The notes below the pieces were generated by a model. The model worked only from the letters and a program-made list of their open reading frames with translations. It was not told the DNA's origin and did not search any database. A program made the position numbers and the translations under genes. Shown here piece after piece: positions 19,801 to 55,950 of a DNA stretch of 64,000 nucleotides (positions within the stretch are counted from its first letter, which is position 1; each line of letters starts with the position of its first letter). Source of the DNA: Callorhinchus milii (Eukaryota). The stretch is taken from positions 12,836,001-12,900,000 of the forward strand of contig NW_024704743.1 in NCBI RefSeq assembly GCF_018977255.1, in the 5' to 3' direction.

Positions 19801-19807
19801 GATAGAA

Positions 19808-21357: not shown

Positions 21358-21430
21358 TATTGTAGTAGGATTGACTTCAATAGCCAATTGTTGTAATGTT
21401 GTTGTAATAACAACAATAATTGTTGTTATT

Positions 21431-23220: not shown

Positions 23221-23249
23221 ATTCCTTTGCAAATCTCGCACATTGTGCC

Positions 23250-31202: not shown

Positions 31203-31610
31203 TAACAACAGCAGCAACAAAATTACATTTGTAAAGCGCCTTTCACGTCGGGAGGATGTCCCAAGGCGCTGAACAGTCAGGGATCAGGACCCGAGCATGG
31301 GGGGCTGGGGGCAGGGATGGGATGAGGGAGGGTAGAGAGATAGGAGTGCAGCTGAAGGCATGGTCGAAAAGGAGGGTCTTGAGTCATGCCTTGAAGGAGG
31401 CAAGAGAGGAAGCAAGGTGAAGGGATTGTGGAATAGAGTTCCAAAGGATGCGGTCACAGAGCCTGGTATGGGAGAGGATGTGAGCTGCAAAGTTCTGGAT
31501 GATCTGCAGCTTGTGGAGGGAAGAGTTGGTGAGGCCGACAAGGAGGGAGTTTCCGTAGTTGAGCCTTGAGGTGATGAGTGCGAGTATGAGGCTTTCGGTG
31601 GCCTCAGGGG
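31203..31610 (-). mobile_element. L2 3' fragment with internal deletion
   Basis: SRLNYGNSLLVGL...HTRLCD joined to LWNSIPQSL; (CAA)n tail. Confidence 0.88.
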
Positions 31611-33169: not shown

Positions 33170-34218
33170 CAGATTATCCAGAACTCTGCAGCTAGTCTTC
33201 TCTCCCATGCCAAACTCCGTGAACTGATCACCCCCATCCTCACCCCGGCTCCATTTGTTCCTCATCCCTCAGAGGATGGAGTTTAAAATCCTTGTCCTTA
33301 CTTTGAAAGCCCTCCATGGTTTTGCTCCCCTCTACTTCTGCAACCACTAACATCAAGCTGTCCACTCCCTCCATTCGGCGGGCACTAGCCTGATTCATTT
33401 TCCCAACGCTTCCTTTCACAAGCTGCAGTTCATCCAAAACTCTGCAGCTCGTGTACTCTCAGGCACCAGGCTCATCACTCCCACCCTCGCCTGACTCCAC
33501 TAGCTCCCCATCCCCCAGAGGATTGATGTCAAGCTCCTCGTCCTCACTTTCAAGGCCATCCATGACCTTACCCCCTCCTACCTCTCTGACCTGCTGACTC
33601 CCTACCAACCTGCCCGCTCCCTCCTCTCATCACGCTCCAGTCTGCACCATGTCTCCCGCCCGACCCGCCCTATCATTGGTGGTCGGGCTTTCAGCCTCTC
33701 TGGCCCCACACTCTGGAACTCCATCCCACGGTCCCTTTGCCTCACTTCCTCCCTTGCCTCCTTCAAGGCTGTCTCAAGACCCTCTCTTCGATCGTGCCTT
33801 TGGTTTCCCTCCCACCTCTCTGCCTTCCCTCACCCCTACACCACCCATCCCCCATGCTCGGGCCCCGACACCTAACTGTTCAGCGCTTTGGGATGTCCTC
33901 CCGATGTGAAAGGCACTCTAGAAATGTAATTTTGTTGTTGTTGTTGCCTGCCCTGCCCATCCCACCATTGGCGGTTGGGCCTTCAGCTTCTTGCCTGCAA
34001 CCTCTGGAACTCCATCCCCAAACCTCCCGCCTAGCCCTTTCCCTCGCCTCCTTCAAGATCTTCCTGTTTGATCTTGCCTTCGGCCACACTCCCACCTAGA
34101 CTCCCCCTACCCTCCAACCCTTTTGATTCCAACCCCAGCTCAGGTGCAACTGTTAACTGTCCACCACCTTGGGATGTCCTTCTAACATGAAATATATAAA
34201 TATAATTTGTTGTCGTTG
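33170..34218 (+). mobile_element. Cluster of nested L2 3' fragments
   Basis: Two QNSAA segments and two L2 tails (about 33945 and 34215). Confidence 0.82.
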
Positions 34219-34914
34219 AAAAGTTAACAGCAAGATTCTGCAATGATACAGCTTAGGATTGAGTTGAAAAGACATGTATATGTGCTGATGTCAAAGAAAA
34301 AGGTAATAATAAAAGCAACCTTCACCTTTTATATTCTCCATATTTATAAGTGACTGTGTGACCTGAGGCAAGTTACCTTCTCACAATGTTATATCACATT
34401 GAAGCTTGAGCTAGAACTGAGTCAGTCAACCATAGCACCTTGTCTGAAAAGCTTTTTTTCACATTTTTACTTAAATTTATTTTCTTTAATAATGTGATAT
34501 TGCCCAATTGCTAAAGGTCCACAGATGCAAGTATAGAATGACGCTGTCTCTGAGGCAAATCATTGAGTTTTTCCTTTGCTGATAATTTTCGGATACCTTT
34601 GCATATCCGTCTGGCGGGCCATTGAGCCAGCAGATCCTGTGGCGGGGAAGCAGGCCAGGGAGAAAAACAATCATACTGATTCTTTCCTGTTTTGTGTAAA
34701 ACAGAGATTAGAGCATACTCAACAAAGTGATAAGGCTTTCCACATTCCTGGTGAAATGTGCTGCTTACATTTGCTCCCATGTGCATACTCTTACAGTTCC
34801 TGTAAGCTTCATTTTCCAATAACAGTTAAGACAATCTAATGCATTTGACTATAATGATCATGTTATAGTTGCTATCTTTAGCTCAATCCTTTCCCCATGT
34901 GCAGTACTAATACT

Positions 34915-35398
34915 ACTACCACTACTATTAATCCTTGCTTTTGATATGACACTTTATCATGGGGTCAAAACGTCTCAGAGCGCTTCACAGGATATACTGT
35001 AAAGTGGATTGATTGTGTATTTTGTGGGTGAAATGCGGCAGCCAGTTTCCGCATAGCAGTGTCCAACAAACAGCCATAGAGTATGTGACCAATATTTTAT
35101 TTGATGGATTGTTGGGAGAATCCACCAAATAGAGGACATTGTTGGGAGGACATTGGGAGAAACTCCTTTCTCTTTTCAAATAGTGCCATAGGATCTTTAA
35201 TGTTCACCTGAGCAGGCAGACAGGTCCTCGGTTTAACCTCTTAACCAAAGAACGGCACCTCCGACAATGCAACACTCCCCAGCACCTCATTGGAGTGTCA
35301 GCATAGACTATGTGACTCCATGTCCCGTCAAGGGGTTCGAACTCACAGCCTTCGGTCTCAGAGGTGAGAGTGTGACCAATGAGCCAGGCTGACACACC
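34915..35398 (-). mobile_element. Deu-domain SINE, full length
   Basis: Head gtgtcagcctggctcattgg...gagttcga, core ggtgccgttctttggttaagaggttaaaccgaggacc, L2-type tail. Confidence 0.82.
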
Positions 35399-35804
35399 AC
35401 ATAAAATGTGGTCAATTGCCCATGCCGTGTACAAGTGAAATTGTTGATTCTCAGGGTGTATAGAGCAGGGTATATATTTGAGAAATGTTCTGTTCCTAGT
35501 CAACATATATAGATACAATCAGAATAAAATACACGTGGCAGGACCGTTGACCTCAACATCATTTATTTGATGCTTATTATATTTTGTTGTTGCCAAGCAG
35601 TGAATGCTAAATAATTTGACTATTACTAATAATATAATAATAATCCTTGAATGTGATATGATATATTCCCCTCCCTTCCCCCCCCACCCACCTCCCCCCC
35701 CCGGCCCCAGCTTGGGTCTGAAATGCTGTACTCTGTCCAGCGCCTTGGGACGTCCTCCCAACGTGAAAGGGGCCATACAAATATAATGTTGTTGTTGTTA
35801 CATT

Positions 35805-36080
35805 ATTAATCCTTATCACATCGTTGTGGTGTCTCAAAGGGCTTCACAGAATATACTGTAAAGTGAACGGATTGTATATTTTATGGGCAAAACACTGCAG
35901 CCAATTGCACGCAGCGGAGTCCCACCCCATTGAGTGACCAAATTTTTTTTTTTTGAACTGATTATGCTTGGTAAACAGAGATGCCTGGAGTAATGAAGCA
36001 TTCTTGAGGTTTCGCCCTGCCCAGGAATCAAACCTGGGTCCTCTCGCTTGCAAGGTGAGTGCTCTAACAAATGTGATACA
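35805..36080 (-). mobile_element. tRNA-derived SINE, degraded
   Basis: ggtttcgccctgcccaggaatcaaacctgggtcctctcgcttgc. Confidence 0.75.
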
Positions 36081-37114
36081 AGCCCAGGTAAGCCAGCTAA
36101 TGAAAAACTAGTTGAAATATTCAAATATTGTGCTCTGATGGACCTTGGTCTTCTTTCGCCTAACAAATTCTTATGTTCTCTAAAAAGTAGAAATGAAACA
36201 ACTGACTCAACCAAATTAGAGTGACATTTTATAGTGCTCAGGTGGCAAAGAGCCACCAGATTTAACCAGATTACAACCAGATTTAAGCTGAATTGTTAGT
36301 TTCAGTAAAACAATGCATTTATTGAAACTGGATTTCATGTAAAGAAATACCCAGCTGAGTGCAAAAGTGACACGTTGGGTAGTAATATTAATAATAATAA
36401 TCCTGGCATTTGATATTGCAATTGTGAAAGAGTTAACAGTTTTTAAAAAAAATTCAAAAGGCAGAAAACAGCAGGAAACAATCATAATATGAAATAAATA
36501 AAATGAAATTCAAAATAACACACAACCATAAATAAGAATCAGTGAGGAAATGTTGCTGCATAGTCTCACCTCACCATAATACCTTAAATGGTCACAGAAA
36601 ACATTGCAAATGTTTATAGTGTTCTGTGACAGGGAGAGAAAGAGACAGCTGACCTATGAAAATAAATACAAATTAGATACCACATTCACCTGCAAAACAC
36701 AGTCTCTACTTTACAGTGCATCCTGTGTAATATTTTGAGATGTCCTCCCTATGTAAAAGGCTCTATATTCAAATACAAGGAATATTATTATAACATATGA
36801 TCCTTGCAGTATTGCTGTTTTTTAAAGCAATTCATTCACTTTTGCCTTGTAAATCTCATCTATAATATTCTGTACCAATAATTGTTGCTTCTATGTCTTC
36901 TGGGATAGTCTTGTTATGTAAGTTAAGATGTAAAACAGATGTTTGTTCCTAGAGGTAAATCATGTGATCAAAAAGATCCAACTGCTGCTTAAGCACTACA
37001 CCTCTATTTGGTGGAACCATTGCCAACCAGGAAGCTCGCAGGGAGTTCCTAGTACCTACCATACACCTAGTGAGGGCTGAATCCCATGCTAGCGAAGGCT
37101 CAAACCCGCACTTG

Positions 37115-37966
37115 TCAGATGTGTCTGTCAGACATCAAGTCCTGGAATGAGAACCAATTTTCTACAGTTGAATGTTGACAAGACCAAGCCCCTGTTGCTG
37201 GCTCTCACCAAGCGGATTTACTCACCTCAGGCATTGACAGCATCAATGTTCATGGATGCACTCTCCATCTCACTGAACCACCTCAGAACCTTGGTGTCTT
37301 GTTCAACCCTCAACTGTCTTTTAAACCCCACATCTGTGCCATGATCCATTCTACCTTCCCCACCTCCACAACATTACCCGTCTCCACCACAATCTCTCCC
37401 CTATCTTAGGTTGTTGAGAATCTCATCCAAGCCTTCATTACATCCAGGCTTACGTGGCAAACTCCCTGCTTGCCGGACTTCCCAACTCTTCCCTCCACAA
37501 ATTGCAAATTATTCAGAACACGGCAGCTCATGTCCTCTCCTGCCCCAGGCTCCGGGAGCAACTCAACTGTATCCTCACCTGCCTTGATTGGCTCCCCATC
37601 TTCCAGATCGAATTTAAGATCGTTGCTCCTCTACCTCTGTGACCTCCTAAATTTCTACCAACTTGTCCACTCCTTCTGTTTGGCGGGCCTGCTCCAACAT
37701 GGGCTGTCGGGCCTTCAGCCTTTCTGCTCTCTGAAATTCCATCCTGGAATACCTCTGCCTCGCACCCTCCCTTGCCTCATTCAAACCCCTGTCTCAAGAC
37801 TTTCATCTTTGAGCATGTCTTCAGTCACCTTTCCATCCTGACGCCTCTTGCTCTCAACTCCTCTTGATTCCAACCCCGAGCTTGAGTGCAAGTGCCTAGG
37901 GACGTCCAGGGCCTAGGGACGTCCTCCCGATATGAAAGGTGCCATATCATTGCAATTTGCTGTTGT
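37115..37966 (+). mobile_element. Degraded L2 3' fragment
   Basis: MRTNFLQLNVDKTK; NSLLAGLPNSSLHKLQIIQNTAA. Confidence 0.85.
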
Positions 37967-37984
37967 CAAACGATCAACTAATGA

Positions 37985-38535
37985 CTATCCTCCTTGTGTG
38001 GGAGGTAAGTAAGATCTCATGGAGCTGAACTGGATCCAAGGTGATATATTTGGCAATGGAATGTTGTTCTTGGTAGTCCAGTTCCTGAGCCAGGTGGGTC
38101 TGCAGTATTCCAGGGCATTGTTGATGACAGCACAACCAGGCTGCTTATCAGCAGTACTTGGAAAGGTAGACCATTCACTGGGGGCAGGGACTCTTCCCAC
38201 TCAGCTCTCATTAACCCTGTAAGCCAAAGCCCTAACGGGTAGTGTGGTCCGCACTAGACAAGCAGTGGGAAAGCTTGGGCAGTACTCTGAGTGGTTTTAG
38301 CTGGTTAGACTCAACAGTACCGACACACGCACTAGGTTTCCCAAATCCTGATTTTTGCCAACCTGCACCCTCCAGAGAGAGAGTGCACATTTTATTCCTG
38401 TAAACATCTTTGGAATTTCCACATATAGGTGGTAAGCTTGGTATACATTCCATGTATGGGTGGGAGGAACTCTTAAGCATGGTTATGGATTTCTGCATGA
38501 GTCAGACATCCAGCTGACCAAAAAAAATCCAATGG
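37985..38535 (+). repeat. Unclassified interspersed repeat of about 550 bp
   Basis: Aligns by eye to 46620-46985 plus 47460-47640, to 56050-56440 and, inverted, to 23035-23220. Confidence 0.7.
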
Positions 38536-38759
38536 AAAACACCTGAAGGCTTAAAAGCCCTGAGAGTGAACTGAAAACAGAAAGAGAAAGTAGGCGGTAA
38601 CGGCTGCTGTGAACTTAGAATAAAGTTGAAACCTCTGAACCTTGGAGGGAAAGTGTTTTTGATCTTATTTGAGCGGTGTCACACAACCGTCTGATTTTAA
38701 ATATAGTGCATTAGATCAAGACCTTCACTCAGCCTCTCTGTTTTGTCCACTTTTTTAAA

Positions 38760-40265
38760 AAATATATATTTATTTACAAATATAATATTTAGTACAACAG
38801 AAATCCAAAAGAAACACTACATCTTTTGTTACAATTTTTTTCTTTTCTCCCAATACAAAAAACATTCTGTTGTTTACGGTACATTCCTTCTCTGCACATA
38901 GGTTGTGGACACGTTTTTGGGACCTTCCCTTTAGCACAGTCGGGAGTTGCCCCTGTGTACGCCACATCCATGTGTGGGTCCGCGCACACTCTGATAAGGC
39001 GCGCTTACCACTTTCGGAAGGCGCCCTGATGTGCACCGTACGTGCACATGTTTACCGTACATACATTTTTGGGACGCTCTTTGGTTACATCTCAAGCATC
39101 CTTCTATATCCTTACTTCAGTCGGATTTGGGTGCGCTCGTGGGCTACCTAGTGGGAGCGCCCTGAGTGGGTTGTGCAGAGCGGCTCCTGCCAGGGTCAGG
39201 CCCCATTTGCGTTTGCCATGATTGAGCCAAACTTCAGCTTGTCCCTCAATATATAGTCCCTGATCCTAGCGTGCACAAGCCTGAGGCAGGCCCTCACCTT
39301 CCCCTCGTTCTGCCACAAAACACCTGGTTTTGGCAGCCAAAGGGCCTCCTTTACCAAGTTTATGATCCTCCAGGTGCATTTGATATGGGTTTCGCTGTGA
39401 GGGCCCGGGAACAGGCAGTACAGCACCGAGTGCTGTGAAAGCGGGTCCCCAGGGACGAACCGCAAGAGAATCCATTCCATCTCTTTCCAAACCAACTTTG
39501 CGAAACAGCACTCCAGGAAGAGGTGGTCCATGGTCTCCTGGCCTCTGCAGCCGGCCCAAGGGCAACGTGCTGACTGGCCCAGACCTCGCCTGTGCATGAA
39601 AAACCTGAGGGGAAAGGCCCCTTTTATCACCAGCCAGGCCATGTCCTGATAGTTCTTGGTCAGGCCTGGTGACGAGGCGTTTTTCCAGACGTCTGGCAAA
39701 CTCCTGTTACCTGCAGGGTAACTCCTGATCAGGTCTGCCCTCTCCCCCTTTTGAACGTTTTCGACTACCTGCCTCGTGGACCATTCAGTGATTGCGCGGG
39801 GATCTGGGATGGTGTTCTTCAGAAATTTCTCAATTGTGTGGAACGTTTCGAGGCAGTTCTGCCAGACCCACCCTTCTTACCATTGGTTACAGGTAGAAAC
39901 CCAGCACGTAGCGGCATTTGTTGCCCACATAGCGGGGCTTCAGGCACAGCCTCAGGCATCTACACACAAAGGATCAGGGCTATGTTAGGGACCCCTTTCC
40001 CCTCCCTTTTCCGGGATTTTGTGTATCGTGTCTCTGTGGACACAATCCATCTTGGACCCCCACATCAATTGGAAGACCTCTCTGATGACTGCAGTGGCAT
40101 TTTTCCTGACAATGCCACGGCAGTCACCAGAAAGGCCAGACCTGGGCCACGTACAGTAACACTGAGAGGGCCTCACACTTTATCACCAGATTTTTCCCGG
40201 TGACAGCAAGCGCTGGCGCCACATCTCCAGTTTCTTTCCGTTTTGTCCACCAGATAGCAGAGGTG
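38760..40265 (-). mobile_element. Tx1-type LINE 3' portion (ORF2 C-terminal zinc-binding region and 3' UTR)
   Basis: ORF 39196-39699 CPWAGCRGQETMDHLFLECCFAKLVW (CCHC, zf-RVT-like); upstream VFQLMWGSKMDCVHR; A-rich tail. Confidence 0.88.
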
Positions 40266-42335
40266 ATCCACTAATCTATTCATAGCAAGAGCACAGGTTC
40301 TGCTTTTGAAAGTGACTAAATTATTCCACTCCCTCCTATGCAGTGCTTTACGAGCGATTCTTTTGATTAGATGAATTGCCTCCGCTCCCAGGTAACTGAC
40401 CCTGTCACTGTTGTTTAAACTGGCCATATTAAATATGTGTAATGTGGCACATGCTACCTGACACTAACCAACCACAGAACCTTTACATCCCAGATAGATA
40501 TCACCCACATGGCTTGGCTGGGTAGCTATAATGAACCCCTGCTGGTACTGTACTTACATAATTTCGCCCACAAATATACAGTCAATTCACTTCACAGTAT
40601 ATTCTGTGAAGCGCTTTGAGACGTCTAGAAGACGTGAAAAGTGCTATAACAAATGCAAGGATTATTATTGTTATAAACATGTACACATACAGAAGAGACA
40701 CACACAGACGCACTCACAAACACATACATACAGAGGAGGGAGAGAAACAGACACGAGAGGCCTGGGGCCAGAAATCACATTGTATCGCGGGTTTGTAGCG
40801 GCTCCTGCGAAAAAATTGTGGTCGTACTTTTCCATTGGTTCAGCTCATCGCCAATTTTTTAACAGCATATTTAATGTCAACAGTACTGGTGCATTACTTT
40901 GGGTCCTTTTTTAATAAATATGAATATTTATATAACACCTTGGAATGTCCTCCTTTCAAAAGAAAAATAATAAAAATTTGATCACTCAATCCACAACTGT
41001 TTGTGGGACACCGCTGTGCGCAATTGGCTGTCGCATTCCGCCCACAAAATGTACAGGCAATTCACTTTACTGTATATTTTGTGAAGTGCTTTGAGGCGGC
41101 TCAATGACATGATAAGGTGTTCTATCAAATGCAAGGATTATTATTATGATTATTGTTATTATAATCTTTGAAGATGCGAAATGAAAGATTGATTGAATTT
41201 GTGAGAATGAAATTCAGTCTAACTCATTTCCTTCTGCCGGAACAATACAGAAAAAGAAGAATATAAAAACTTTGATATCGGCTACATTATAATTCTTCCC
41301 CAAGAATTTTCTATATTTATGTTTTTTTTCTGAGTGTGAGGTTGAATTCTACAGACAAGTGCTCTTATCGTTACTGGGTTTGTGTTTTTGCCAGAAGTTA
41401 TATCAGCTTTTTAACTTGGTATGATTAAATAAAGCAATGTACTGTCCTTATCACCTCAGTGGTAAAACATTTTTCAAAGTGAACGTGAATTGAAATCCAT
41501 CAAGAATTTTGTGGGTTTGATTCTTTTTCCAGTTGCAACCACTTGTTGATAAGTTCCTGTGTCCATTTGGTTAATGTGGTTTTGGGCTGCAGATTGCCAA
41601 TGCCTTTTCTCCTTAGAATTGACCAAACATTCATGATGGATGGGCACCAATCGCATTGTTCTAGTCCTAATGTCAAATAAATCATGCTGACCATTTCACA
41701 TTCAATTCACATTCAGTTCCCTGAAATTTCAAACTTGCAAATTTGGTAATACCCTTTCTACTGAGTCCTCTTTGTTTCTAAACAGATCGTCGTGAAATGG
41801 GGAGTGTGATCAAGCCTGGCAGTACCTCCACTCACCGATCTCTGGTTATGCCCACTGGAGCCATGTAAATATTATCAGTCTGGGTATAAAAGTCCAGTTA
41901 TCTAGAAGTACAACAACAGGTATGTGTGTGGTGATGTTTTGGAATTGGTCCTGCCAATGGACTGGGTGTAGTGTTTGAAACTTATCTGCGCATAAAACAG
42001 AATGTTGAGGTTGGTCTCCCCCTGTCCAACTGGGGAGGTTAACAAAATCAAAATCAGAGCTATGTAGGTGCTATATTGTTCAGCTCTTTTTCTCTGATTG
42101 GGCCAGATCCTGTTAATTATCAGAAAAATGGCTGCCTCCAAACCAGGAAAATAATGAGGAATCAACTTTGGCTACCTTGCTACAGCCTTAGATGCACACC
42201 CAGAATAGAGGATAAACCTGAGGAGCAGAGGAGTCCATCTGAGGGTGACTGAAAAAACTAGAGGAGAAAAGGATATGTAGGCAAAGGCAAGAGTGGCTGG
42301 AGGGCAGTAATAGAGAAAGAGGTGAGGATGGGACA

Positions 42336-42627
42336 AATAATAATAATCCCTGCATCTGATATAGCGCCTTATCACATCTTTGAGACGTCTCAAAGTGCTT
42401 CAAGGAATTATTATCCCCAAATCCACCAATTGACTATTTTTGAAGCGATTACTACTCCTGGAAAAGCGATCCGCCAATCGACTAGCAACCTAGTTCCTAC
42501 TTACTGCTAGGTAAACAGAGGCGGTGGAGTAAGGAAACGTAACTAAGGTTTTGCCCTCCCAGGGAATCAAACCTGGATCCCTCTTGCTTGCGGGACAAGT
42601 GCTCTAACTAATACGCTACTGGATCCA
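42336..42627 (-). mobile_element. tRNA-derived SINE, older subfamily, internally deleted
   Basis: cctacttactgctaggtaaacagagg...gtgctctaac. Confidence 0.8.
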
Positions 42628-45600
42628 CGTAGACCTGCTGGGAATAAGAGCAGGAATAACTGAAGGCTAATAACTGGCAAATATAGTGAAAAGTGTAAGG
42701 GGGAAATGCAAAATCTCTGGATTTCAGCAACAAGATTGGGGGAGGGTGGAGTAGAGTGTAGCAATGGAAAATCTTGGTAATAGTTCTGCCCTGTTTCCTG
42801 GACCCATTGCAGCTCTGCTGTTTCCCCAACTTTAGGGGAGTGTTTTTTAATTGCAGAAGGTGGTAGACCTAGATCATGTCTTAATTTACCATGGCAATCT
42901 GCTTGAGTATAAATAAGGCAGATGTCGTCAAGGTTGGTTTCCATTGTTTGATTCTGAACTCCATTTTGTACGTTCACCTTCAGTAAACTATGACGTCAGC
43001 ATCAATATTGATCTGTAAAGGAGATTGTTGGGATGGCAGATGTGAATAATGTAAAATTAATTCCATTTGGAGTCTAATACTATAGTGGCAGCTTACATTG
43101 GAATATTACAGCAACAATTTGAATTCCCTGCAGGTGATAACTGCAGTCTACTATTCATACAATGAGGAGTATCTAAACGCTTTCATTCTCTAAAATTGAA
43201 TTATCACCCTCACAGTACATATCTCAACAAACAACAGACTGCTAAACTTAATCTTTCTACTTTATTTTTTAAAGATAGTGAACTTAGGTAGGGTAGTTTC
43301 AATTCCAGTTGAGTGAAATGGTACTGAAAATCATATGGGTAACTTAGATATCAATCACGTGCATGCACATCAGCTGAATGGAACAGTTTGCAGAATTATT
43401 CCTGGCTAGCAGTATCTTTATGTCGAGAACCAGCTCTTTGTCCCCCTGACACACAGCCTCTCCCACTGACTTGGGTATGCTGCAGGCAGAACAGATCAAT
43501 TGTTTTGTAGACCAATTCCCTGCTTCTCGTTGCATAAACTGTATGTCAGCCAATCTCCCCTGCTAACTTTGGCCCAGACTGGCTGACATTTGGCTGGCAC
43601 CTGCAATATTGTGGGATTTAATGACTAACTTTTGTGTAGTAAACCTGCCGTTTAGATTTCAAAGGGGGATAACTGTTATTACTTTTATTGCTATATCAAT
43701 AACAATAAATGTATTGAACCCTGGAGTTTATTTCTTCCACAATGTGGTTTAGGAACTGTGAATTATTTTTTCTACATATCTGCTACGTAAAGCTTCATGG
43801 ATGAGATTACTTTCTTAGCAAAGAATCATGGAAACTGAGGCACAGAAAGAGGTCATTCTTGCCTATCTGCAAATTTCTCCACAAGAACTATACACTCAAA
43901 TCCCAAATCCTTATGTCCTTTTCCGGTACCTTTTTATTATCGTGGTGACCTGTAGTATATTGGTTAGAGCATTCACCTCACAAACAAGGCTTGATTCCCA
44001 GCAGAGTGAAATGTTAGGCAAGTTTCTTTACTCCATAAGCCTCTGCTTATTTAGCGGTAAGTAGGAGTTAGCAGTAATCAGGTTGATAGTCTATCGCTTT
44101 TCTAGGGGTAATAATAGTGTTTTAATTAATAATAATAATTTGGTCACTCAATCCACAACTGTTTGTGGGATACTGCTGTGCACAATTGGCTGCCACGTGA
44201 TACGGTTCTATATCAAATGCTAGGATTATTATTATTATTATTATTCCTCTAAGCACTAAGTTTCACATGACCATCACCCCTGTCCATGCCAGACTCCACT
44301 GACTCTCTAGCTCCCAGCGGATCAAATTCAAGTTCCTCACTTTCACCTACAAATCCCAACATGCCTTCAACCTTCTCTACCAGTGTAATCTTTACCAGCC
44401 TCAATATCCTGCCTGCTCCTTCTCTTAACAAAACCGGACCTGCTGTATGTTCTTTGTCCCCTCTGTCCTACCAATAATGTCTGAGCCTTCAGTCACTATA
44501 ACCTACCCTCTGGAACTCTCACTCTAAATCCCTTTACCCTGTTTCTATTTGTATTAAACGTCTCTGGAAAACATACCCCTTTGAAAGTCCCTGCTGTCCC
44601 ATCCCCAATCCACCTGCTCAAGAGTCTGGCACTGACTCTGACAATCACTTTGCGATGATACCGTATGTGAAGGGAGCTATATAAATGGAAATATTTATCC
44701 AATTGCATCTTAAATAATGTTATTATAGGACATTTGCATGCACAATTACCACTTGTGGCAAGCATTTCATGCTCTAATAACCCGCTGTGTGAAAGCAAAC
44801 TTCGAGTCTAATTCTTCCAGTAATAATCCTGTCTTTATGTCCCCTTATTATAGAGTCACCAGTCAGTGGGAATAATCATTTGTTATTTATCCTCTCAAAG
44901 CTTTTTTCACAATTGTGAAAATCTCTCAACATTCCCTGTTTCGGTGGAAACCTCAATCTGTTAGGCCTATTCAACAACAATTTTCATTTATATCATGCCT
45001 TTCAGGTCGAGAGGAATTCTCAAAGTGCTTCACACATTTGACAGGGAGTCTGAGTTGGGGGGCAGCTGAGGAAGTAGTGGGGGCAGGGGAAGGTGGACAA
45101 GTGTGAAAGATGTATCTTATTCCCATAGCAACAGCCCCTCATTGCAAAAGTCAGTCATGAAACGAACATATAGCTGAAGAGTGCCATTTGTCCCATTTGA
45201 TCTCATTCTTTCAGAATACCACCTCTGCTTCTTCGTAATGTAACATCAAACTGTCTCTTAAACGAGTTCTAGCTTCTGATAACCCATTCCAGGGTTGGTT
45301 ATCCTCTGCGTAGCTCAGTTAAGCGCTTTGGGACGTCCTCCCGACGTGAAAAGCGCTATATCAAATGCAAGGATTATTATTATTAAGTACACGTTAATTA
45401 ACACAATACTCCTACCAGCAAGGAGAAGCCTAGCGTTAGGTCAGCATACCAGGAAATGTTTGTCAATGTTCTGCTTGCTCCTTTGCTGAATAAGCAGCCC
45501 ATTTTATTGAACAATATTATTTATGCTGCTTGTCAATAGCATAAACAATGGCTTGTAAACACTTTCCATCAATTAGTTAACAAAATGACAACTTCGGGGC

Positions 45601-46619
45601 ATGAAATGTACCTAAGAACCACAATTGTCGGTGCACCTTATGTGCTAAAGCATAAAATATGCACTGACGCACAGAGCTGCTGGAGAATGCACTATACTAG
45701 GAACAATGGTGCATGTCATTCCAACATTCAATGGAATAACATCAAATCCATTAACTTTGCAGGTCAGAAAATATTGATTATTTGCAGAAGGTGGCAGAGT
45801 GAAAGCACTTAAACGGTGCAGTTTTTTTACAATACATTACTTGATGATGGTAGTTCAATCAGAACTTCTTGTTTGCTAAATGCTGACTTTATTAATGGCT
45901 ACATATCTGTGGCTTTCCAGTTATTTCAAGTATGTAACATGGTGCTCTCAGGGAGGAATGATTTCTCATGTTGTGGCAGGTTGAGTAACTTTATAGCCCT
46001 CCCAGACTGAATATGATGACTTAGGTAGATACAATGCTATTCAGTGCGTGAGACTGTTCTCTAGCTATTCATCAGTCAGGAAAATAGCCCTCACTTGAGC
46101 TGATATCCTACCCCCATGCTTACAAAGATTACAATATTATGACACAAGCCTCTGGCATGATAGTGATGACAAGCATTGGTAAGGTTCTATTACTGCCAGC
46201 TCTTCAGTCCTGCATTAATTTATCTATTCAATTAGCTATTTCTGTCTTACTTGTGGTAGTTAAAGGGCTTCTAAGGTTTGACAATGCTTGCTGCAGTCCA
46301 ACAGTGGAGAGAGTTAGCTACACTCGAGTGCTTCACAAGAAAAAGTACGTATCACTTAATAATAATAATCATTGGATTTGATATAGCTCCTTTTCATGTC
46401 TTCTAGACGTCTCAAAGCTCTTCACAGAATATACTGTAAAGTGAATTGACTATGTTTTGTGGGCAAAACGCCAATTGCGCACAGCAGTGACCCACAAGCA
46501 GTTGTGGATTAATTGACCAGTTTATTATTATTATGTTTTTAAGAAATTATTACCCCAATCTCACTTAAGGTTGGGATAGCTATGCGTGTGCTAATGATCA
46601 ACTCCAGATTAGATAATAA

Positions 46620-47640
46620 ATTGTGATTCCTCTTAAGGGGAGGTAAGCAGGGTTTCTTGGAGATGAATTGGCTCCAAGGTGACACACTTGGCAACGGAAT
46701 GTCGGAATCGAGTCAACTCTCTGTGGCGGTCTCGGTAGTTGGGTTTCTGAGCGAGGCAGGTCCTCAGTACTCCCAACCACTGCTGATGACAGCATACTGG
46801 CTTGGCTCATTGCAGGGGCGGTGGGGGAGAAGGGTGGCAAATAGATCACTTGGAGCAGGGATTCTTCCACTCAGTTCTTATTGACCCTGCAAGCCAAAGC
46901 CCTAATTGGTAGCAGTGGGAAAATTTAAGACAGTGCTCTGGATGGCAAGCTATGCAGTTTCAGTTGATTCAACTCCAGCTGTACCATTGTGGAGTCCTGT
47001 AGCTTTGTGGTTAGAGCACTCACCTCGCAAGCGAGAGGATCTAGGTTTTATTCCTGGCTAGGAATAAAACAATGGGCAAGTTTCCTTACTCTACAGACCT
47101 GGGTTTTATTCCTGGTAAGGAGTGAAACATTGAGCAAGTTTCCTTACTCTACAGCCCTCTCTTTACCTAGCAGTAAGTAGGAACCCGGTTGTTAGTCGAT
47201 TGGCGGATTGCTTTTCCAAGGGAAATAATCTCTTCAAAAAAAAATAATAATTTTGACGCTCAATCCGTGACTGTTTATGGGAGACTGCTGTGTGTAATTG
47301 GCTGCTGTGTTTAACCCACAACATATATAGCCAATTCACTTTACAGTATGAAACGCTTTGAGATAACTCGAAGACTTGATAAGGCACTATATCAAATGCA
47401 AGGATTATTATTATTACTATTATTATAATAATACATGCTAGAGTGCTCATGTTTTGGCTCTTGTCAGGCTGTATCCAATACTTTCTGGAATTAGGTAAAC
47501 AGAATGTGGCCCTCCAGAGAGATATTGTGCATTCCATTGCAATAAACATCTCCGGAATCTCCATGTATAGGTGGGATGCACGGTACTCTCAATTTAGTTT
47601 GAATACCCAAACATTGTGATGGGTTTCCACATGTGTCCAA
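46620..47640 (+). repeat. Unclassified repeat copy split by a SINE
   Basis: ggaggtaag...ccaaggtgacacacttggcaacggaatg matches 38001-38062; homology resumes at about 47460. Confidence 0.65.
46989..47425 (+). mobile_element. tRNA-derived SINE with internal tandem duplication of about 57 bp
   Basis: ggttttattcctgg...gcaagtttccttactctacag occurs twice (about 47040-47153). Confidence 0.85.
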
Positions 47641-47759
47641 AAGTAATAACAATCAATTGCTCAGTGTGGTATCTAACATGGAATCCAAAGTTTCAAATTT
47701 GGTATCCTGCCAAATATTTCATTATTTGTGTTGGCAGAACATGTCCAGTGTTTACCATT

Positions 47760-48150
47760 GGTTTGGTTGTATCAGCTGGTAGCACTATTGCCTCTGGATC
47801 AGAAAGTTGTGCATTCTAAACTACATGTCAGGACTTGAGTTCATAGTGTAAGCAGGCAGTTGGGTTCAGTATAGGGAGAATGCTACATTCTCAGAGATAC
47901 TGCCCATTGGGTGTTAAATTGAGGTCCCATCTACCTGTTTCTGTACAACTTAAAAATCACGTGATTCAAAAAGTGAAGGGAATTTTTCTTGCTATCCTGG
48001 CCAACAATCCTCCAGATTAATTCATTATTCACTTCATTGCTCTTTTGCGGGACCTCTGTGTTGCAAAATGACTGCCACATTTGTACACTTCACAGTATAC
48101 TGTAATGTACTTTGAGACATTTTGACATGATAAGGGGCTACGGAAATGCA
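47760..48150 (+). mobile_element. Deu-domain SINE, degraded
   Basis: gttaaattgaggtcccatct...atcctggccaacaatcc. Confidence 0.65.
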
Positions 48151-50925
48151 GTTTTTCTTTCTTTAAATGCCTGTGGCCTCAGGATACTGGTTGTACTTGA
48201 GAAAAATTCCTATGTCAAAATTTGCCTTGATGGTAAAGACTGAGTGCAACGAGATGAGGATATTGAATGTTCAGACAAGAAAAGTGACACCTACAAGGGT
48301 TATTATAAAGGTATATTGTATAGAGATTGGTCACTCTGGAAGGATGAGAGCAACTGCTTTCAATGGCAATGGTTAAATTGAGGCATTTCTGCCACAAAAT
48401 ACACAGTCATTTCACTTTACGGTATATCCTGTGAAGCACTTTGAGACATGATAAGGTGCTATACCAAATACAAGGATTATTATTAAGTGGGGGAAAGATA
48501 GCCTTTTTGTCAGAACCAATCTTACAAACCTGTGAGTTAAACTATATGAAGTACTCAAATTACAAATCGATTGTGATCAGAAAACAATGATGATATGAAA
48601 GGGGCAATCCAAAGCATGTAAGTTAAGAACACAAGGCTTTTAAGACCAGCGATCATTAATAATAATAATAATATAATAATAATATAATAACAATAATAAT
48701 TAAGGATCATTAATACATTTGTGCTGCTTTATAATGTGTTTCATATGATAATTACCAAATTGAATAATGTAAATTTCACAAGCTCTGCAGTATTGAAGAT
48801 TTGAAACTTGTCCAAACCCAAATTTTCAACCCTCTTTGTGATCATCTCTATCAAATCCCTCTCAGTTTAAGAGAGATAAGTACCAGTGCAGCACTCTTTA
48901 CCACATTGCTCTGCAAAAGCGTCTCAGGATGTAAAGTACATCTCCTCGAGCGAACCTCATTGTATGTCACACTGACCTTTAAAACTTCAAGCACTGGCAC
49001 AAGATCTCATCGGATCAGAAGTCTCGCAAGTTGCTGTGATGTATAGGAGATTTCTCGGAAGAGGTTCACTTCATTCTCAGAGCTACTTTTTCCAGCATTA
49101 GGCACTATTCATGCTGTTATTTTCCACATTCACTATTTGTGCAGATATGTCATGGTATTGGTAGGAGGATCAGTGGAATGTTTAGAAATGAGGATAACAT
49201 GCAAGAATTATTTCAGCAGTTTCTATGTTGGGTGAATGAAAATGGCTGAACCATATGACCTGTATCCATTGTAGTAAAGCATTCCAGTAGTTCAGGCTGA
49301 CGTTGCCAATTACAGGAGGGAGGAGATTGACCCAAAATGTTTTCTAGTCCCAGTACTGACTAAATCTATCAAATATGAATAATTTGGTAACAGCTTGTGA
49401 GGTCTGTCTGCTGTCAGTTGTAAAAGAACAGTATCTAATGTTAGACGCACAATTACAGTATAGGTGTAAATGTATAGACATTTTAAAAAAAGCGAAGTAA
49501 ATAAGCAGGATAAAATTTGGCAATTGCTACATTAAACAAGCCTATTGAGGGAGGATGAACTTAAATACTCTGAACAGGTCAATAAAAAAGTTTCTTTTTT
49601 CTTACAGAACTTTATGATTTTTGAGAAGTTTAAAACCTGTAGCATTCTCTGAAACAGTTTTGAAGCTGGTTTTCTGTAAAGTAAGAACTACCGAAAACCA
49701 ACTTCAAAGTTTAAACTGAATTCAACAATTTGCCAAATTCTGGACACTTAAAATACTCCATAAATAGAGTAAATCTAAACCCAGATGGAATTTCTCCGAT
49801 TTGCTGTGTCCAATTGGCTGCCGTGTTTCGCCCACAAAATACAGTCACTCCACTTTAAAATATATTCTGTGAAGCGCGTTGAGACATCTCAATGACATGA
49901 TGAGGCACTATATCAAATGCAAGGATTATAATTGTTATTTGTTTGCCCACCGAAATTTCAATCCCTATTGCTTGTAAGATAAATATGTATAGATTTCATA
50001 AAATCTGTAGATTTCGCAATCTGTATTACCATAGGTGAAACAAATGAATAGATGTGTGACATCACACCTGTGCAAGTCTTTACATTTTTAAGTGCTGGAA
50101 GGAATTTTGAAGTGACCACAGGATAAGAACAGTTAAAAAAAATTGAACAGTTAAAAAAAATTGAACCGCTTCCAGCAATTTGGAGATTAAATCAGTTTTA
50201 CACAATTCATTGTGATGACAGTTCCAACTTGCCTTTAACATGGGCAACTAAATGAAAACTGGTGTGGTTACCTTTTACAAAATACAGAGGTGCACTGGTT
50301 ATGTATCATGCATCACAGCTGGCACAGTCAGCATCACATTATTCATTCAGGGAGAATGGGATGAATTTTCTGTGCTAATGTATAGCCTTTGGGCATGTGT
50401 TTGTGTTTATATATTGGGGTGGGGATTGGTTTTGTGTAGTCAGTCAAATGACATCTAGAATTACAAGGTTAGATTTTCACTTGCAGACATTGCAAGTATC
50501 ACCCAATTTTCCAGTGAACTGAAGCTTCAGTCATCACTGATGTTAAATTAGACACAGAGGAGTGTAGGGTTATGCAAGACCAGAAATGAGCATTGTAATC
50601 AATATGCCTGACCCCAAAGTAAAATTTTAAAAATCCTATATTATTCTATATCCCTCAAATGATTCTTCGCCAAATAGTAAATTAATCCCTATAATCATTA
50701 CTCTCAGCGTAAAGTACTAGAATTGCCATCATCTGTTCACTTTCCCTCTTCTGAGGTTGAGTCAGTGTTCCTTTGGTCTAGATTTTTTTTTACGATGTAA
50801 TACATAACGGGGCCTTCACTTCAATAAAATAACAACAAATGGTAAATAATAGTTGAAAACTGAATTCCATTTTGTTTGCTGACAATTTTTTGATTTGCTG
50901 ATTTGGGATTTTCTAGTCAAGAATT

Positions 50926-51292
50926 GTGGAGTCCTGTAGCATAGTGGTTAGAGCACTCAACTCTCAAGTGAGAGGACCTGGGTTTGATTTTCGGGCATAG
51001 TGAAGTTAGACAAGTTTCCTTATTCCACACACCTCTGTTTACCTAGAAAAAGGTAGGAACTTGGTTGTCAGTTAATTGGCAAATCATTTTCCGGGGTAAT
51101 AATCCCTTTTTTAAAAAAAATTGGTCATTCAATCCCTAACTATTTGTGGGACACAGCTGTGTGCAATTGGCTGCCGTGTTTCACTCACAAAATATACAGT
51201 GAATTCGCTTTACAGTGTATTCTGCGAGGCACTGTGAGATACCTCAACAAGATGATAAGGTGCTGTATCAAATACAAGAATTATTATTATTA
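50926..51292 (+). mobile_element. tRNA-derived SINE, older subfamily
   Basis: gtggagtcctgtagcatagtggttagagcactc head; family tail. Confidence 0.85.
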
Positions 51293-52954
51293 ATATGGGC
51301 TGCTAGGTTCACCTCCAAAAATACACAGTCACGACATTTTACAATAAATCTTTGAGACATTTTGATGACATGATGAGTTGCTATATCAAGGCTCATTATT
51401 AATAATTACAATGCAATCTATTGTTTGGGCTCCACTGAACGATCATAGGATTCGCTAATATGAAATTGTTATACATTAGAAAGGAATTTGTCACATAAGA
51501 CTTACAAATGCACTGTACAGTGCATTCAGCCGCTTGTCAGCATTCAGCAAGTGCTGAGCATGTTTGTTCACACTACTCAGGGAAGAAGTAATTGGTAATT
51601 GAAGCGAGACTATTCTTGAGAAAGTTTAAAGTATGATGTTTAATAATGTATTTCATCTGAGGATGCCTAGCAACCAAGTGGTAAAGGCTACCCGAAGCTA
51701 ACAATGGAGATTTTCACAAAAGCCAGTGGTATTGCAGTAATGCATTGAGGGAAACTGCAGACAGTAATGTTGCATTAAACATACAGGGACTGTTGTGCTA
51801 TATGATATAACAGGGAACAAGAAATGTGTAATAAGGCAAGAATTTTCTATTATAAAATCCACCTCCAAGGGATTCATTATTTGTTTACTATTCAAAAAAT
51901 TCTCAAGATGCTCCAAATATTTGAATTCAAATGAACCATTGTACTGTGCTCAGCTATAATTACACCTGGTTCTGTTTTAAGCTGCAAGGCAATCATATTA
52001 AGTCTCAGCAAAAAGCTCCTGCTGGAAATTACTCAGGATTGCTTTGAGACCACTCACTCACAGTCAGAGAGAACAAAAAAATTAAAGTGTTTACATCTAC
52101 AAACAGCTGATATGAAATTACTCCTTCAAAATAATTCATGCTCTTAGAGTGGAAAATTAATGAGATGAAAACAGACCTTTTTTTNAACATGTGCCCAGGT
52201 CTGGGGTCATTACTGAGCACCTGTATTTGGTTTTGCAACAGTGGAATTTCAGCCATTAAACCAACTAGTCCAACCATCAGGCAAATAGAATACCCTCTTA
52301 ATTGCTATCATGGCCCCACTATTATTTTTCAATAACACTGAAGATAGCAATCTGAATCCTTGTCTTTAAAATAAAACTTTTTTTAATGTAACAAAATCTA
52401 ACACTGTATTTCGCACACCTTATCAGAATGCGACGGTGCTATTAATATTAGGACCAGGCTGAATTTCACCGCTCAGATTCCCGCTATACAGTAACTACTT
52501 TTGTTTTGCTTCATTCAACAAGCAAAAATAATAACTCTCTTATTCGTCATTTGTCATTCAGTCGAGTAATGATACACAGAGGATGTTTGAAGACCACATA
52601 ATGTGTATTATATCAAGGGACAGACCATGTAGGTTTGAAATAATCTACCAAACAACAAACACTTCTGACCTTTAAACAAATAAATATAAAATTATTTCAT
52701 TCAAATTGCAGTTTTACTACTGAATGATTGAATTACCATCATAAATTTTAGGACCAGCTTCAGCAAACCTATATCAACAAGAATAACTTGCAATTATATA
52801 GCAGCCTTCATATGTCCTTTACGCAGGACAGCTAATCAGTGCACACATATTCTTACATATGTACTGCTCTCTGGAAATCACTCATTATTATCTATGATTT
52901 TATAAAAAGCATTCTTCCACCATTACAGAACAATTCTTCAGATCTCTGTGAAGC

Positions 52955-53370
52955 ACCTCTCAGACCTGCTGACCCCCTATCAACCTGTCCGCTCTGAGAC
53001 GCCGTCCAGCGTGGAGGGCGCTATATAAATCCAAGTTGTTGTTGTTGTCTGCTCCCTCCATTCAGCAGCCTACTCCATGTCTCCTGCCCGACCCGCCCTA
53101 CCATTGGCGGTCGGGCTTTCAACCTCTCTGCTCCCATCCTTTGGAACTCCATCCCACAATCCCTTCGTCTCGCTCTCTCTTACCTCCTTCAAGGCATGAC
53201 TCAAGACCCTCCTTTTCAACTGTGACTTCAGCCATCCTCCTACCTCTCTGCCCTCCCTCATCCCAACCCTGCCCCCACCACGCTCGGGTCCTGAGCCTCG
53301 ATTGTTCAGTGCCTTAAAACATCCTCCTGACATGAAAAGCACTTTACAAAATGAAATTTTGTTGTTGTTT
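52955..53370 (+). mobile_element. L2 3' fragment containing a short second-subfamily L2 tail insertion
   Basis: ggcggtcgggctttc...tggaactccatcc; inserted tail of about 55 bp flanked by tgtccgctc / tgtctgctc. Confidence 0.8.
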
Positions 53371-54236
53371 ATATGACATACAGTATTACTATACTTTTGT
53401 GAGTGTCTTATATTGTAAAACAAAATATCACATGAAAGTATTAAGACTTTTTGGTTTCATTGACTTCACGAGGGCACGATATTAATATATAATGGTAGAA
53501 TATCTATTATATTCAATACATTTGAATTAAAGTCGCTTGGATAATTTTTAGAGATTTTGTGACATTAGTGACCTAATATAATTCAGTAAGATTCTCTGTA
53601 GTCACAAGATGAACAAAGTCTTTCAGCCCATTTGATTTCATCATTCCAGAATATTCACTCTGCCATTTTCCCATAACAACATTAAATCATTTGTTAAACA
53701 AGTTCAGCACCCTGGCCTCTACCCCTTTCCTGGGAACCCATTCAGCCTGTTATTAACGGTTTGTGTAACAAAGTACAAAATATATCCTGTCCTGAAAGTC
53801 TCCTGGGCAAAACTGAACTTGAACCTGCTTAACCTGCTGCCTCACCTTATCTATTTGTCCTTCATGGCTCATCCCTCCAATACTGGGGATCATCCTTGTT
53901 GCATTTCTCTAAGCTACCTACAGAGCCAGACCTCTTATGTCAGAGTGAGCAAAACTGTATGCAGCCCTCAAGTTGCAGTCAAACGAGAGCACTGTATAGT
54001 TTGAACATGACCTCTGGGGGTCTGAAGACCTGCAAATTGTTTGCCTTATTAATTACTGCCTTACACTGTTTGGAAATAAATCAACTAACACCTTACATCT
54101 CTTTCAGCTTCCTCTTTGGTGAGTTGCATCCCATCCACAGAGCCTTCTAATTTTACTTCCTGTAAGATTCCATTAGTTTTTTTCAAATATTGCGATTAAG
54201 TTAATGGGTCCACAATGATGAATTTATGGAGCTGTA

Positions 54237-54691
54237 GAATGGATGCTGGGGTCTTTATCAGAACAAATGTGCTTGTTGAGGTTTAAAGCCTGAGGAGAGG
54301 TGCGCTACTTTTCTGGCACACCTGTTGGCCTCTCCCAGCTCCATTTACATTGCCTTTGATTTGTTGCTGATTAACAATACGGCCGCAGTTGAAAGCTGAC
54401 AAGCCGAACATTAAGAGCAATTCTCAGTCAGCCATTGGATCCACGTGCTTCTACCAATTTCATACAAATGGCTCACAACATGATTTAACATTGTCATTGG
54501 ACCAAAGTTCAACATACAAAACAATGAAGGGAGAAGGAAAAGAAAGAATTCTTTGTTAAAAATAATCTTGGCGTCTGGCAATGGCTTTTTAGGGGGGTTG
54601 TATTGTGATGGTGACCAGGTTCAGCGTTGCAGTGGGTGAAGGGAACACTTACCAAAGATTAATAATTAACAGGATAAACCATTCTGTGATG
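54237..54691 (-). repeat. Long-range inverted repeat, arm B (428-bp core 54264-54691)
   Basis: Block-by-block reverse complement of 8927-9354, 425/428 identical. Confidence 0.97.
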
Positions 54692-55264
54692 CAGAATAAC
54701 TACTAAATGTGTTTAACTTTACAAACACTGAACATACAACAATCGAATATGCATCTCATTTTGAAGAGATATGTTCTGAAACTTTTCCATCTTAAAAAAC
54801 TATCATAAATATTCACAGTGAATTCATAGCACATGCATCATTAACCAGAGTAATGGAACATGCAGGCTCTTTCTTCTTTTCTAAAATGATAGAAATTGAC
54901 AGCACAGATGGAGGCCATTCAGTCCACCAAATCTGTGCTGGTATGAGCAACCCCCTGCATTTATCTAATCTAATTGTATTTCTCTTAACATAACTCTTCC
55001 ACAACTGATTCTCTTTAAACAATCATTTGTAGTAAAACATTCCACATTATAACATGCCTCTGTGTAACAGACAATAGAACCATAGAAATTTACAGTGCAG
55101 AAGAAGATTATTCTGTGAAGGACATAGAGGGGAGTCTCTATATCAAATTTTGTCAATTTTAAAACTTTATTTTTTAATTTAGCACAAATGCGCCATGCCA
55201 TAGTGCTGCAAAGGTGTGTGACACAATGAGACACAGACAGATAAGAGCTGTAAGATAAGAGATA

Positions 55265-55335
55265 AAATTGGTACAATAGCATGGATTCAATGACTGACTG
55301 AGAATTGCTCTTATTGTTCGGCCTGTCAGCTTTCA
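55265..55335 (+). repeat. Third, partial diverged copy (C) of the inverted-repeat core
   Basis: 62/71 ungapped identity to 9158-9228; complementary to 54390-54460. Confidence 0.9.
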
Positions 55336-55357
55336 TATAGTTCAGTCTGATGGGTAT

Positions 55358-55680
55358 TTAGAGGAGACTTTTGAGAACCTCACTCGAGCAGAGAGCCCAA
55401 CGGAGCGAGCTGTGAACAGAGTGAGACTTTTGTGAAGGAATTTGGTGAGAGTGGGAATTCGGTGCAAAGGGGTAAGAAGATGCTAGATAAAAAAAATTAA
55501 ATAAAGAGTAAAAAATGGCAGCGCAGGCAGTATGCTGAGACTGTAAAATGTGGGAAATTGTGGACAGTGAGACTGTCCCAAATGATGACATCTGTGGGAA
55601 ATGCCTATGTCTTGACTCACTCTGGCTCAGAGTCTTTGAGCTGGAGTGCACATTAGAGACACTCCAACACATAATGTAGG
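55358..55680 (+). mobile_element. CR1 LINE 5' UTR and ORF1 N-terminus only
   Basis: aaggaatttggtgagagtggga also at about 61835; Cys-rich ORF1 start (ICGKC...LWLRVFELE). Confidence 0.75.
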
Positions 55681-55685
55681 GGGAG

Positions 55686-55950
55686 GAATAATAACAATAA
55701 TAATCCTTGCATTCGATATTGAGCCTTATCATGTCTTCGCGACATCTCAAAGCGCTTCACAGAATATACTGAAAGTGAATTGACTGTATATTTTGTGGAC
55801 GAACGCAGCACAACAAATTGCACACAGCAGTGTCCCACAAACAGTTGTGGATTGAAGTTGCCAATTATTTTTAAAAGGAATTCTTACCCCCAGAAAAGTA
55901 AGCCGCCACTCGACTAACAACTGGGTTCCTACTTACTGCTAGGTAAACAG
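55686..55950 (-). mobile_element. tRNA-derived SINE, older subfamily, 5'-truncated
   Basis: Family tail and cctacttactgctaggtaaacag. Confidence 0.82.

What the first reader, a model, noticed from the sequence alone, without database searches (positions are those of the whole stretch)
54390..55335. Third partial copy gives competing pairing partners (docking/selector-like layout)
Seen: 55265-55335 matches 9158-9228 at 62/71 (50/54 in its 3' part) in the same orientation as arm A. It is therefore complementary to 54390-54460 of arm B, about 800 nt away. In a transcript, that part of B could pair locally with C or distantly with A, but not both. Established: mutually exclusive docking/selector pairing controls exon choice in Drosophila Dscam1. 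Inference: this is a possible RNA structural switch, or alternatively the 71-bp block is the functional core of a serially duplicated enhancer. The divergence of C suggests the family is old while A and B are homogenised.
Basis: partly seen in the sequence, partly recalled or inferred. Interest (0 to 1): 0.8.

Follow-up and report, generated by a model that had tools for sequence, protein, structure and literature searches.

The report
Backwards 74-base copy beside inverted repeat
The third copy is real, but it looks like an ordinary backwards copying scar wedged between two mobile-element fragments in the gap between the elephant-shark EDN1 and PHACTR1 genes, where no alternative exons were found, so nothing supports an RNA splicing switch.

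Summary
Observation confirmed: C (55265-55335) matches A and B at 62/71, and only these three copies were found in the genome. The docking/selector reading is not supported. The window lies between EDN1 (last coding exon 84 kb from C) and PHACTR1 (first coding exon 46 kb from A), with no coding exon found in it. None of C's changes is compensated in B. The full A:B duplex (-860 kcal/mol) dwarfs B:C (about -100). C sits between a young truncated repeat and an internal point of an old CR1-like fragment, and lacks B's CACGTG motif. Low-copy pairs within 2 kb are common here: 13 in 664 kb, 7 inverted, against 0.38 expected. So C is most likely a decaying template-switch copy of B. The scan noted such local backwards copies before at other loci of this genome. 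The side result is more interesting: contigs of two related organisms suggest that A and B both exist there and are alike within each species while 6-10% away from this one, i.e. concerted evolution of a 455-bp inverted pair around 45 kb. Whether C exists in relatives, and whether the region is transcribed, could not be decided.

The parts
55262..55335 (+). Copy C: 74-nt inverted copy of part of arm B, 64/74 identical; inferred templated (template-switch) insertion, decaying
54237..54691 (-). Arm B, 455 nt, inverted duplicate of A; holds the template block 54390-54463; lacks 16 nt that A has and that runs X9 and X17 show at this place
8927..9397 (+). Arm A, 471 nt; 347 nt (8927-9273) identical to B; six substitutions and one 16-nt indel all lie in 9274-9390
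55149..55250 (.). Young dispersed repeat fragment (98% to its best relative); copies share the left end and this one stops short on the right, abutting C
55251..55261 (+). Short filler that repeats the last letters of the young repeat (junction scar; inference)
55340..55690 (+). Old dispersed repeat, 71-87% to relatives, read as a CR1-like LINE 5' region (family name recalled, not from a call). In 5 of the relatives whose match reaches 55340 the element runs on upstream, where this copy has C instead
9398..54236 (.). 44.8-kb SINE/LINE-rich spacer between A and B; no coding exon found; could be inverted by recombination between A and B (not shown)

Best explanation
C is a by-product of DNA replication or repair. 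A nascent strand left its template inside the 5' region of an old CR1-like element, copied about 74 nt of the opposite strand of B 0.8 kb away, and returned, so that C replaced the element's own upstream stretch. Later a young repeat landed against its left end. C has since drifted neutrally, too short and too diverged to be corrected, while the full-length inverted arms A and B kept overwriting each other by gene conversion. The B:C complementarity is the automatic result of an inverted copy and has no shown function. Shown: sequence, copy number, flanks, gene context, base rate. Inferred: direction B to C, the template-switch mechanism, neutrality, conversion.
For: Only three copies, all local. 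C occupies the place where five relatives carry the element's own upstream sequence; a profile of 12 relatives aligns to the window only from 55340 on. No further piece of A/B lies on either side of C. Base rate: 13 low-copy pairs within 2 kb in 664 kb (7 inverted including B:C, 48-99 nt, 82-94% identical, 0.2-0.9 kb apart) against 0.38 expected by random placement; 2 of 3 checked genome-wide are strictly two-copy. Their duplex energies (-58 to -112) bracket B:C. No compensation: B equals A at 71/71. Motifs of A/B are lost in C. Inverted templated insertions near their template are known germline variants (PMC8421209, PMC5453318; passages). Conversion: the 347-nt perfect run is the longest between any two places in 664 kb; in run X9 one 253-nt contig at depth 73 (neighbours 47) with 19 substitutions against the window is entered and left with 30-nt overlaps and followed by two variant contigs; X17 shows depth 83 against 37.
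Against: Junction microhomology is not shown: template and element family share five letters at the right junction, but 3 of those 5 differ in the window today. At about one inverted local copy per 110 kb, a given 455-bp arm would be the source under 1% of the time, so the coincidence with A/B is unexplained unless both arose together or the site is prone to it. 1 of 3 control pairs proved to be a dispersed repeat, so the base rate is an upper estimate. The published screens cover templates closer than 0.8 kb (within 100 bp in PMC8421209). Upstream non-coding PHACTR1 exons or a lncRNA across the window are not excluded.
Confidence: 0.72

Rival explanations
1. C is the trimmed remnant of a longer, old third copy of the A/B segment, cut back on both sides by repeat insertions with deletions, or a by-product of the same complex event that made A/B. 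Also without function.
For: Both ends of C abut repeats, and the left one is younger than C's divergence (98% vs 86%). C's divergence (10/74, 95% interval 7-23%) overlaps that of the unconverted A/B edge (3 substitutions in about 28 nt).
Against: No other piece of A/B was found left of the young repeat or beyond the CR1-like piece (flank test p 0.85), so two deletions are needed.
Confidence: 0.15
2. The block is a regulatory DNA element (enhancer or promoter module) for EDN1 or PHACTR1, kept in three copies.
For: It lies in the EDN1-PHACTR1 interval. A/B carry CACGTG and CCAAT motifs (motif meaning recalled). A/B appear to have persisted in relatives, and B differs less from X9 (19/253) than the repeat-derived left flank does (71/463, p 0.002).
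Against: C has lost CACGTG and one CCAAT. B is no better conserved than its unique right flank (19/253 vs 32/400, p 0.88). The best-conserved piece seen (3/134 in X17, 54558-54691) lies outside the block.
Confidence: 0.07
3. RNA switch: in a long transcript B pairs either with C or with A and so controls splicing or circularisation, as docking and selector sites do in Dscam1.
For: B:C is stable in silico (-99 and -105 kcal/mol; 63-65 expected pairs). On the minus strand, the sense of both flanking genes, C and B would be made 45 kb before A, giving B:C a head start.
Against: No alternative exons found; splice-like sites near A, B and C are near window background. No compensatory change. A:B is about eight times stronger and has a free toehold of about 380 nt. 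42 inverted matches (A:B included) lie in the same span. Chance local inverted copies fold as well.
Confidence: 0.03
4. B's block and C are the terminal inverted repeats of a 946-bp non-autonomous DNA transposon.
For: Inverted 74-nt ends about 800 nt apart.
Against: No other copy of the ends in the genome; no target-site duplication visible; B's identity with A runs unbroken across the supposed element end.
Confidence: 0.02

Closest known systems
Templated inverted insertions from template switching (MMB-TI, PMC8421209; four-point model, PMC5453318; passages read)
   Same: Short inverted copy near its template, often replacing sequence, found as a germline variant, and able to form RNA structure without selection.
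   Different: The template is 0.8 kb away, beyond the 100-bp reach of the MMB-TI screen, and junction microhomology can no longer be read.
Dscam1 exon 6 docking site and selector sequences (PMC4691838, PMC8791459; passages read); human ATE1 competing pairings (PMC7797038; search listing only)
   Same: One element is complementary to two others and cannot pair with both at the same nucleotides.
   Different: No exon cluster, no selector beside an alternative exon, no shown conservation or compensation, partners of very unequal strength, transcription unknown.
Inverted repeats under concerted evolution around an invertible segment: Saccharomyces flip/flop region (PMC9731477; abstract and section 10 read); FLNA-EMD repeats (seen only as described in PMC8327919, passage; original paper not held)
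   Same: Applies to A/B: an inverted pair tens of kb apart, alike within species and diverged between species.
   Different: The arms are 0.46 kb against 4 kb in yeast and appear non-coding; the spacer has no coding exon found; inversion itself is not shown; the cross-species evidence is short-read contig topology only.

Membership tests
Docking/selector RNA pairing (Dscam1 type) | Lies within one pre-mRNA | tested here: inconclusive
   Between the coding ends of EDN1 and PHACTR1; upstream non-coding exons or a lncRNA not excluded; no RNA run was laid.
Docking/selector RNA pairing (Dscam1 type) | Cluster of duplicated, mutually exclusive exons, each with a selector beside it | tested here: not met
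   No paralogous host-gene ORFs in the window; 141 PHACTR1 proteins give no credible exon in it; 4 ORFs over A/B/C and one overlapping C's end have no Pfam hit at cut-off; splice-like sites near background. Non-coding exons would escape these tests.
Docking/selector RNA pairing (Dscam1 type) | One site complementary to several partners, mutually exclusive | tested here: met
   Geometrically true for the 71-mer.
Docking/selector RNA pairing (Dscam1 type) | Compensatory substitutions between partners | tested here: not met
   Within this genome B equals A at 71/71, so none of C's 9 mismatches is matched in B. Across species not testable.
Docking/selector RNA pairing (Dscam1 type) | Conserved across species | tested here: inconclusive
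   C is uncovered in 4 of 4 runs, including the same-species run, so the test had no power.
Docking/selector RNA pairing (Dscam1 type) | Disrupting and compensating mutations change exon choice | not testable with these tools
   Bench test.
Templated inverted insertion (template switch) | Short inverted copy of a nearby template | tested here: met
   74 nt, inverted, 799 nt gap, no other copies found.
Templated inverted insertion (template switch) | Foreign to the sequence in which it sits | tested here: met
   Five relatives of the right-hand element continue upstream with other sequence: C scores 13-41 against them, the four with a full upstream part score 85-128 among themselves.
Templated inverted insertion (template switch) | Microhomology at the junctions | tested here: inconclusive
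   Right: five letters shared by template and family, only 2 of 5 kept in the window. Left: overwritten by a younger repeat.
Templated inverted insertion (template switch) | Empty site in an outgroup | tested here: inconclusive
   No contig covers or bridges C in any run.
Inverted repeat pair under concerted evolution (A/B) | Both copies predate a species split | tested here: inconclusive
Inverted repeat pair under concerted evolution (A/B) | Copies more alike within a species than between species | tested here: met
   Window A=B over 347 nt; X9 collapses 253 nt into one contig that differs from the window at 19 places. Rests on the two-copy reading above.
Inverted repeat pair under concerted evolution (A/B) | Spacer found in both orientations | not testable with these tools
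   Short-read contigs cannot phase across the arms; repeat orientation inside and outside the spacer was uninformative.
MITE / non-autonomous DNA transposon | Dispersed copies and a target-site duplication | tested here: not met

The most novel reading that the evidence does not exclude
A and B are an unusually short (0.46 kb) non-coding inverted pair that has been kept and homogenised across chimaera lineages 8-15% apart, because it works as a duplicated regulatory module or as the hinge of a recurrent inversion of the 45 kb between EDN1 and PHACTR1. C would then be a dated snapshot of the old arm, and at the outside a local decoy that competes with A for B in DNA or nascent RNA.
Probability: 0.1. 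Interest if true: 0.55.

Novelty: new member of a known kind. Interest (0 to 1): 0.14.

Why it matters
As it stands, little: it is one of probably thousands of short backwards copies in this genome, and it shows that three complementary copies in a docking-like layout can arise without selection. The part worth a follow-up is the A/B pair. If aligned chimaera genomes confirm long-lived homogenisation of such short arms 45 kb apart, it would be a compact vertebrate test case for how short a repeat can be and still convert or invert, in an interval between two vascular genes.

Tried and rejected
Expression: no RNA holder was listed among 24 runs; this is no evidence either way, and no RNA run was laid. 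C in relatives: the bin 55252-55329 was essentially uncovered in 4 of 4 runs, the same-species run included, and no contig bridged it; a hole proves nothing. Rfam: 6 hits, all tRNA-like heads of SINEs, none at A, B or C. Coding reading of the block: frames over A/B/C show no Pfam family at cut-off, and the B-to-C changes read by hand were amino-acid changing. Larger direct duplication: 8051-8168 matches 54035-54141 at 69% with nearly the same offset as A to C, but the latter is a genome-wide repeat fragment and the dot plot shows no continuous diagonal. A/B as a decayed copy of the CR1-like 5' region: anchored alignments gave weak post hoc signals (p 0.001-0.07 for 4 of 5 relatives; p 0.005 for the 60 nt after the block), but a 12-sequence profile found no hit in A or B; left open, not supported. 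Homology beyond the A/B ends: none (p 0.74 and 0.67). Broken repeats at the arm ends that would show which arm is the insert: none. Repeat orientation as a sign of inversion: uninformative. A genome-wide profile search for distant copies was not available, so a family under about 80% identity stays open. Literature: no paper held all of PHACTR1, EDN1, enhancer, conserved, shark, or elephant shark, inverted repeat, gene conversion, intergenic. No supplements were read.

Full report
Observation. BLAST gives 74 nt at 86.5%, E 4e-18. A (8927-9397) and B (54237-54691) are a 471/455-nt inverted pair with a 347-nt perfect run; all six substitutions and the one 16-nt indel lie at one end. Searches of the whole genome with arm A, with the C region and with a 28-letter pattern at up to 3 mismatches return only A, B and C. 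The tool cautions that this does not prove rarity; a family under about 80% identity is not excluded.

Setting. The window is G000:C2:12836001-12900000 in a 992-Mb genome. With 100 kb fetched on each side, two genes were found, both on the minus strand. One is the first coding exon of PHACTR1 about 37 kb before the window; the matching record is Callorhinchus milii XP_007904564.1 on a contig as long as C2. The other is endothelin-1, whose coding exons map to +144140 down to +139214 in window coordinates. So A is 46 kb and C 93 kb upstream of the PHACTR1 start, and C is 84 kb past the EDN1 stop. tblastn of all 141 PHACTR1-search proteins over the 264 kb hit that exon and two weak places (E 0.003 at -67 kb, E 0.03 at +31 kb inside a repeat). 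The PHACTR1 exon lies in a GC-rich island (up to 82% GC), the only such peak between the genes. 42% of the window matches itself elsewhere, mostly SINE and LINE pieces. Non-coding upstream exons or a lncRNA cannot be excluded.

Anatomy of C. Its left neighbour, 55149-55250, is a dispersed repeat 98% identical to its best relative; relatives continue to the right where this copy stops, followed by an 11-nt filler that repeats its last letters. That repeat is younger than C's divergence, so it probably overwrote C's left junction (inference). The right neighbour, 55340-55690, is an old repeat (71-87% to relatives) that I read from memory as a CR1-like 5' region. Five of the 23 loci examined match from exactly 55340 and carry family sequence upstream of it, where the window has C. 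A profile of 12 relatives aligns to the window only from 55340. C is thus foreign at its site, while the same block sits seamlessly in 455 nt of unique sequence at B. Template and family share five letters at that junction and the spacing fits, but 3 of the 5 differ today, so microhomology is only suggested. Weak similarity of A and C to the replaced stretch (scores 32-43, p 0.001-0.07 in 4 of 5 relatives) might have guided a switch, but it is post hoc and the profile did not confirm it.

Base rate. In 664 kb (the 264 kb plus eight 50-kb blocks placed at round coordinates) there are 63 low-copy matches of 45 nt or more. Thirteen lie within 2 kb of each other against 0.38 expected by random placement; 7 are inverted, B:C included, 48-99 nt long and 82-94% identical. 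Of 3 checked genome-wide, 2 are strictly two-copy and 1 belongs to a dispersed family. Their duplex energies, -58 to -112 kcal/mol, bracket B:C. B:C is a typical member of this class. Against this reading: at about one per 110 kb, the chance that such a copy comes from a given 455-bp arm is under 1%, so either the scan picked a coincidence or C and the A/B duplication share an origin.

The RNA-switch idea. B:C would form in a transcript (-99 on plus, -105 on minus; 63-65 expected pairs), but A pairs the same 71 nt at -136 and the whole arm at -860, with about 380 nt of B left free by C. The span from A to C holds 42 inverted matches of at least 70 nt and 80%. In Dscam1 one docking site pairs with selectors upstream of each of 48 exon 6 variants, and disrupting and compensating mutations show the pairing (PMC4691838, PMC8791459; passages). 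Here no exon cluster was found, a crude scan gave splice-like sites near the window's background of about 2 per kb, and none of C's changes is compensated in B. C also lacks the CACGTG and one CCAAT of A/B, which argues against a preserved enhancer core.

Relatives. Four runs of contigs were laid on 53380-55700. C was uncovered in all four, including the same-species run, so its age and conservation are open. The arms gave more. In X9 (organism B) a 253-nt contig over 54305-54556 has depth 73 where neighbours have 47, differs from the window at 19 places, overlaps the flank contig by 30 nt and is followed by two variant contigs (depths 36 and 46). In X17 (organism C) a contig over 54177-54441 has depth 83 against 37, with 26 differences. 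Contigs break at 54690/1 in X1, X9 and X17, and X14's is clipped there. The simplest reading is that both arms existed before these lineages split (flanks differ by 8-15%) and that each lineage keeps its two arms alike. Two arms 6% apart would stay identical over 253 nt with probability about 2e-7. B is no better conserved than its unique right flank (19/253 vs 32/400, p 0.88), though better than the repeat-derived left flank (71/463, p 0.002). X9 and X17 carry at B the 16 nt that the window's B lacks, so that loss is probably derived.

Comparison. C works like the templated inverted insertions of PMC8421209 and the four-point events of PMC5453318 (passages), which create inverted repeats able to fold without selection; its template is farther away than those screens look. 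A/B resemble the homogenised repeats of the Saccharomyces flip/flop region (PMC9731477, abstract and section 10) and the FLNA-EMD repeats (as cited in PMC8327919). Conversion tracts of a few hundred bases are usual (PMC3961182, passage). No inversion is shown here. Two searches found no paper on this locus. Earlier notes of this scan describe similar backwards copies at TBC1D9, SEL1L3 and CLNK in this genome; they are leads, not support, and I did not recheck those loci.

Verdict. A real feature of an ordinary kind: most likely a neutral template-switch scar (0.72) or the remnant of an old third copy (0.15); regulatory DNA 0.07, RNA switch 0.03, transposon 0.02. Interest 0.14, most of it owed to the A/B pair.

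Noticed in passing
window 8927-9397 and 54237-54691: The inverted arms appear to be shared with two related organisms and homogenised within each (raised depth, same breakpoint at 54690/1, 6-10% from the window). This is the most interesting feature of the locus.
   Followed up: partly
window 54264-54501 (run X1): In another same-species run one contig at double depth with no difference from B spans the three sites where the window's A differs from B (54335-54344), while 54503-54690 has single depth; conversion tracts may differ between individuals, or bubbles were popped.
   Followed up: no
window 54177-54236 (run X17): The double-depth contig in organism C reaches 60 nt beyond the window's A/B edge, so the duplicated or converted tract may be longer there; no such homology remains in the window.
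   Followed up: partly
L035:9677-9743 with G000:C2:12826655-12826721; L110:9065-9151 with L110:9717-9803: Two strictly two-copy local inverted duplicates (67 and 87 nt, 90%) like B:C; such copies occur roughly once per 100 kb in the sample.
   Followed up: yes
window 20792-22016: Two LINE 3' fragments face each other as a 1.2-kb imperfect palindrome (72%).
   Followed up: no
window 61445-61575 and 58890-59097: Head-to-head SINE pieces form short palindromes (131 nt at 90%; 208 nt at 79%).
   Followed up: no
window 38748-40236 and 4106-4558: Fragments of a retrotransposon with a zf-RVT domain (PF13966); a 91% copy lies at about +122 kb in window coordinates.
   Followed up: no
G000:C2 about 12989100-12989900 and 12995200-12995650: Upstream of EDN1 a small cluster of local copies: a 119-nt direct copy (93%) with a 61-nt inverted copy (90%) beside it, and a 48-nt inverted copy 6 kb further on.
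   Followed up: no
window 52185: A single N in the window.
   Followed up: no
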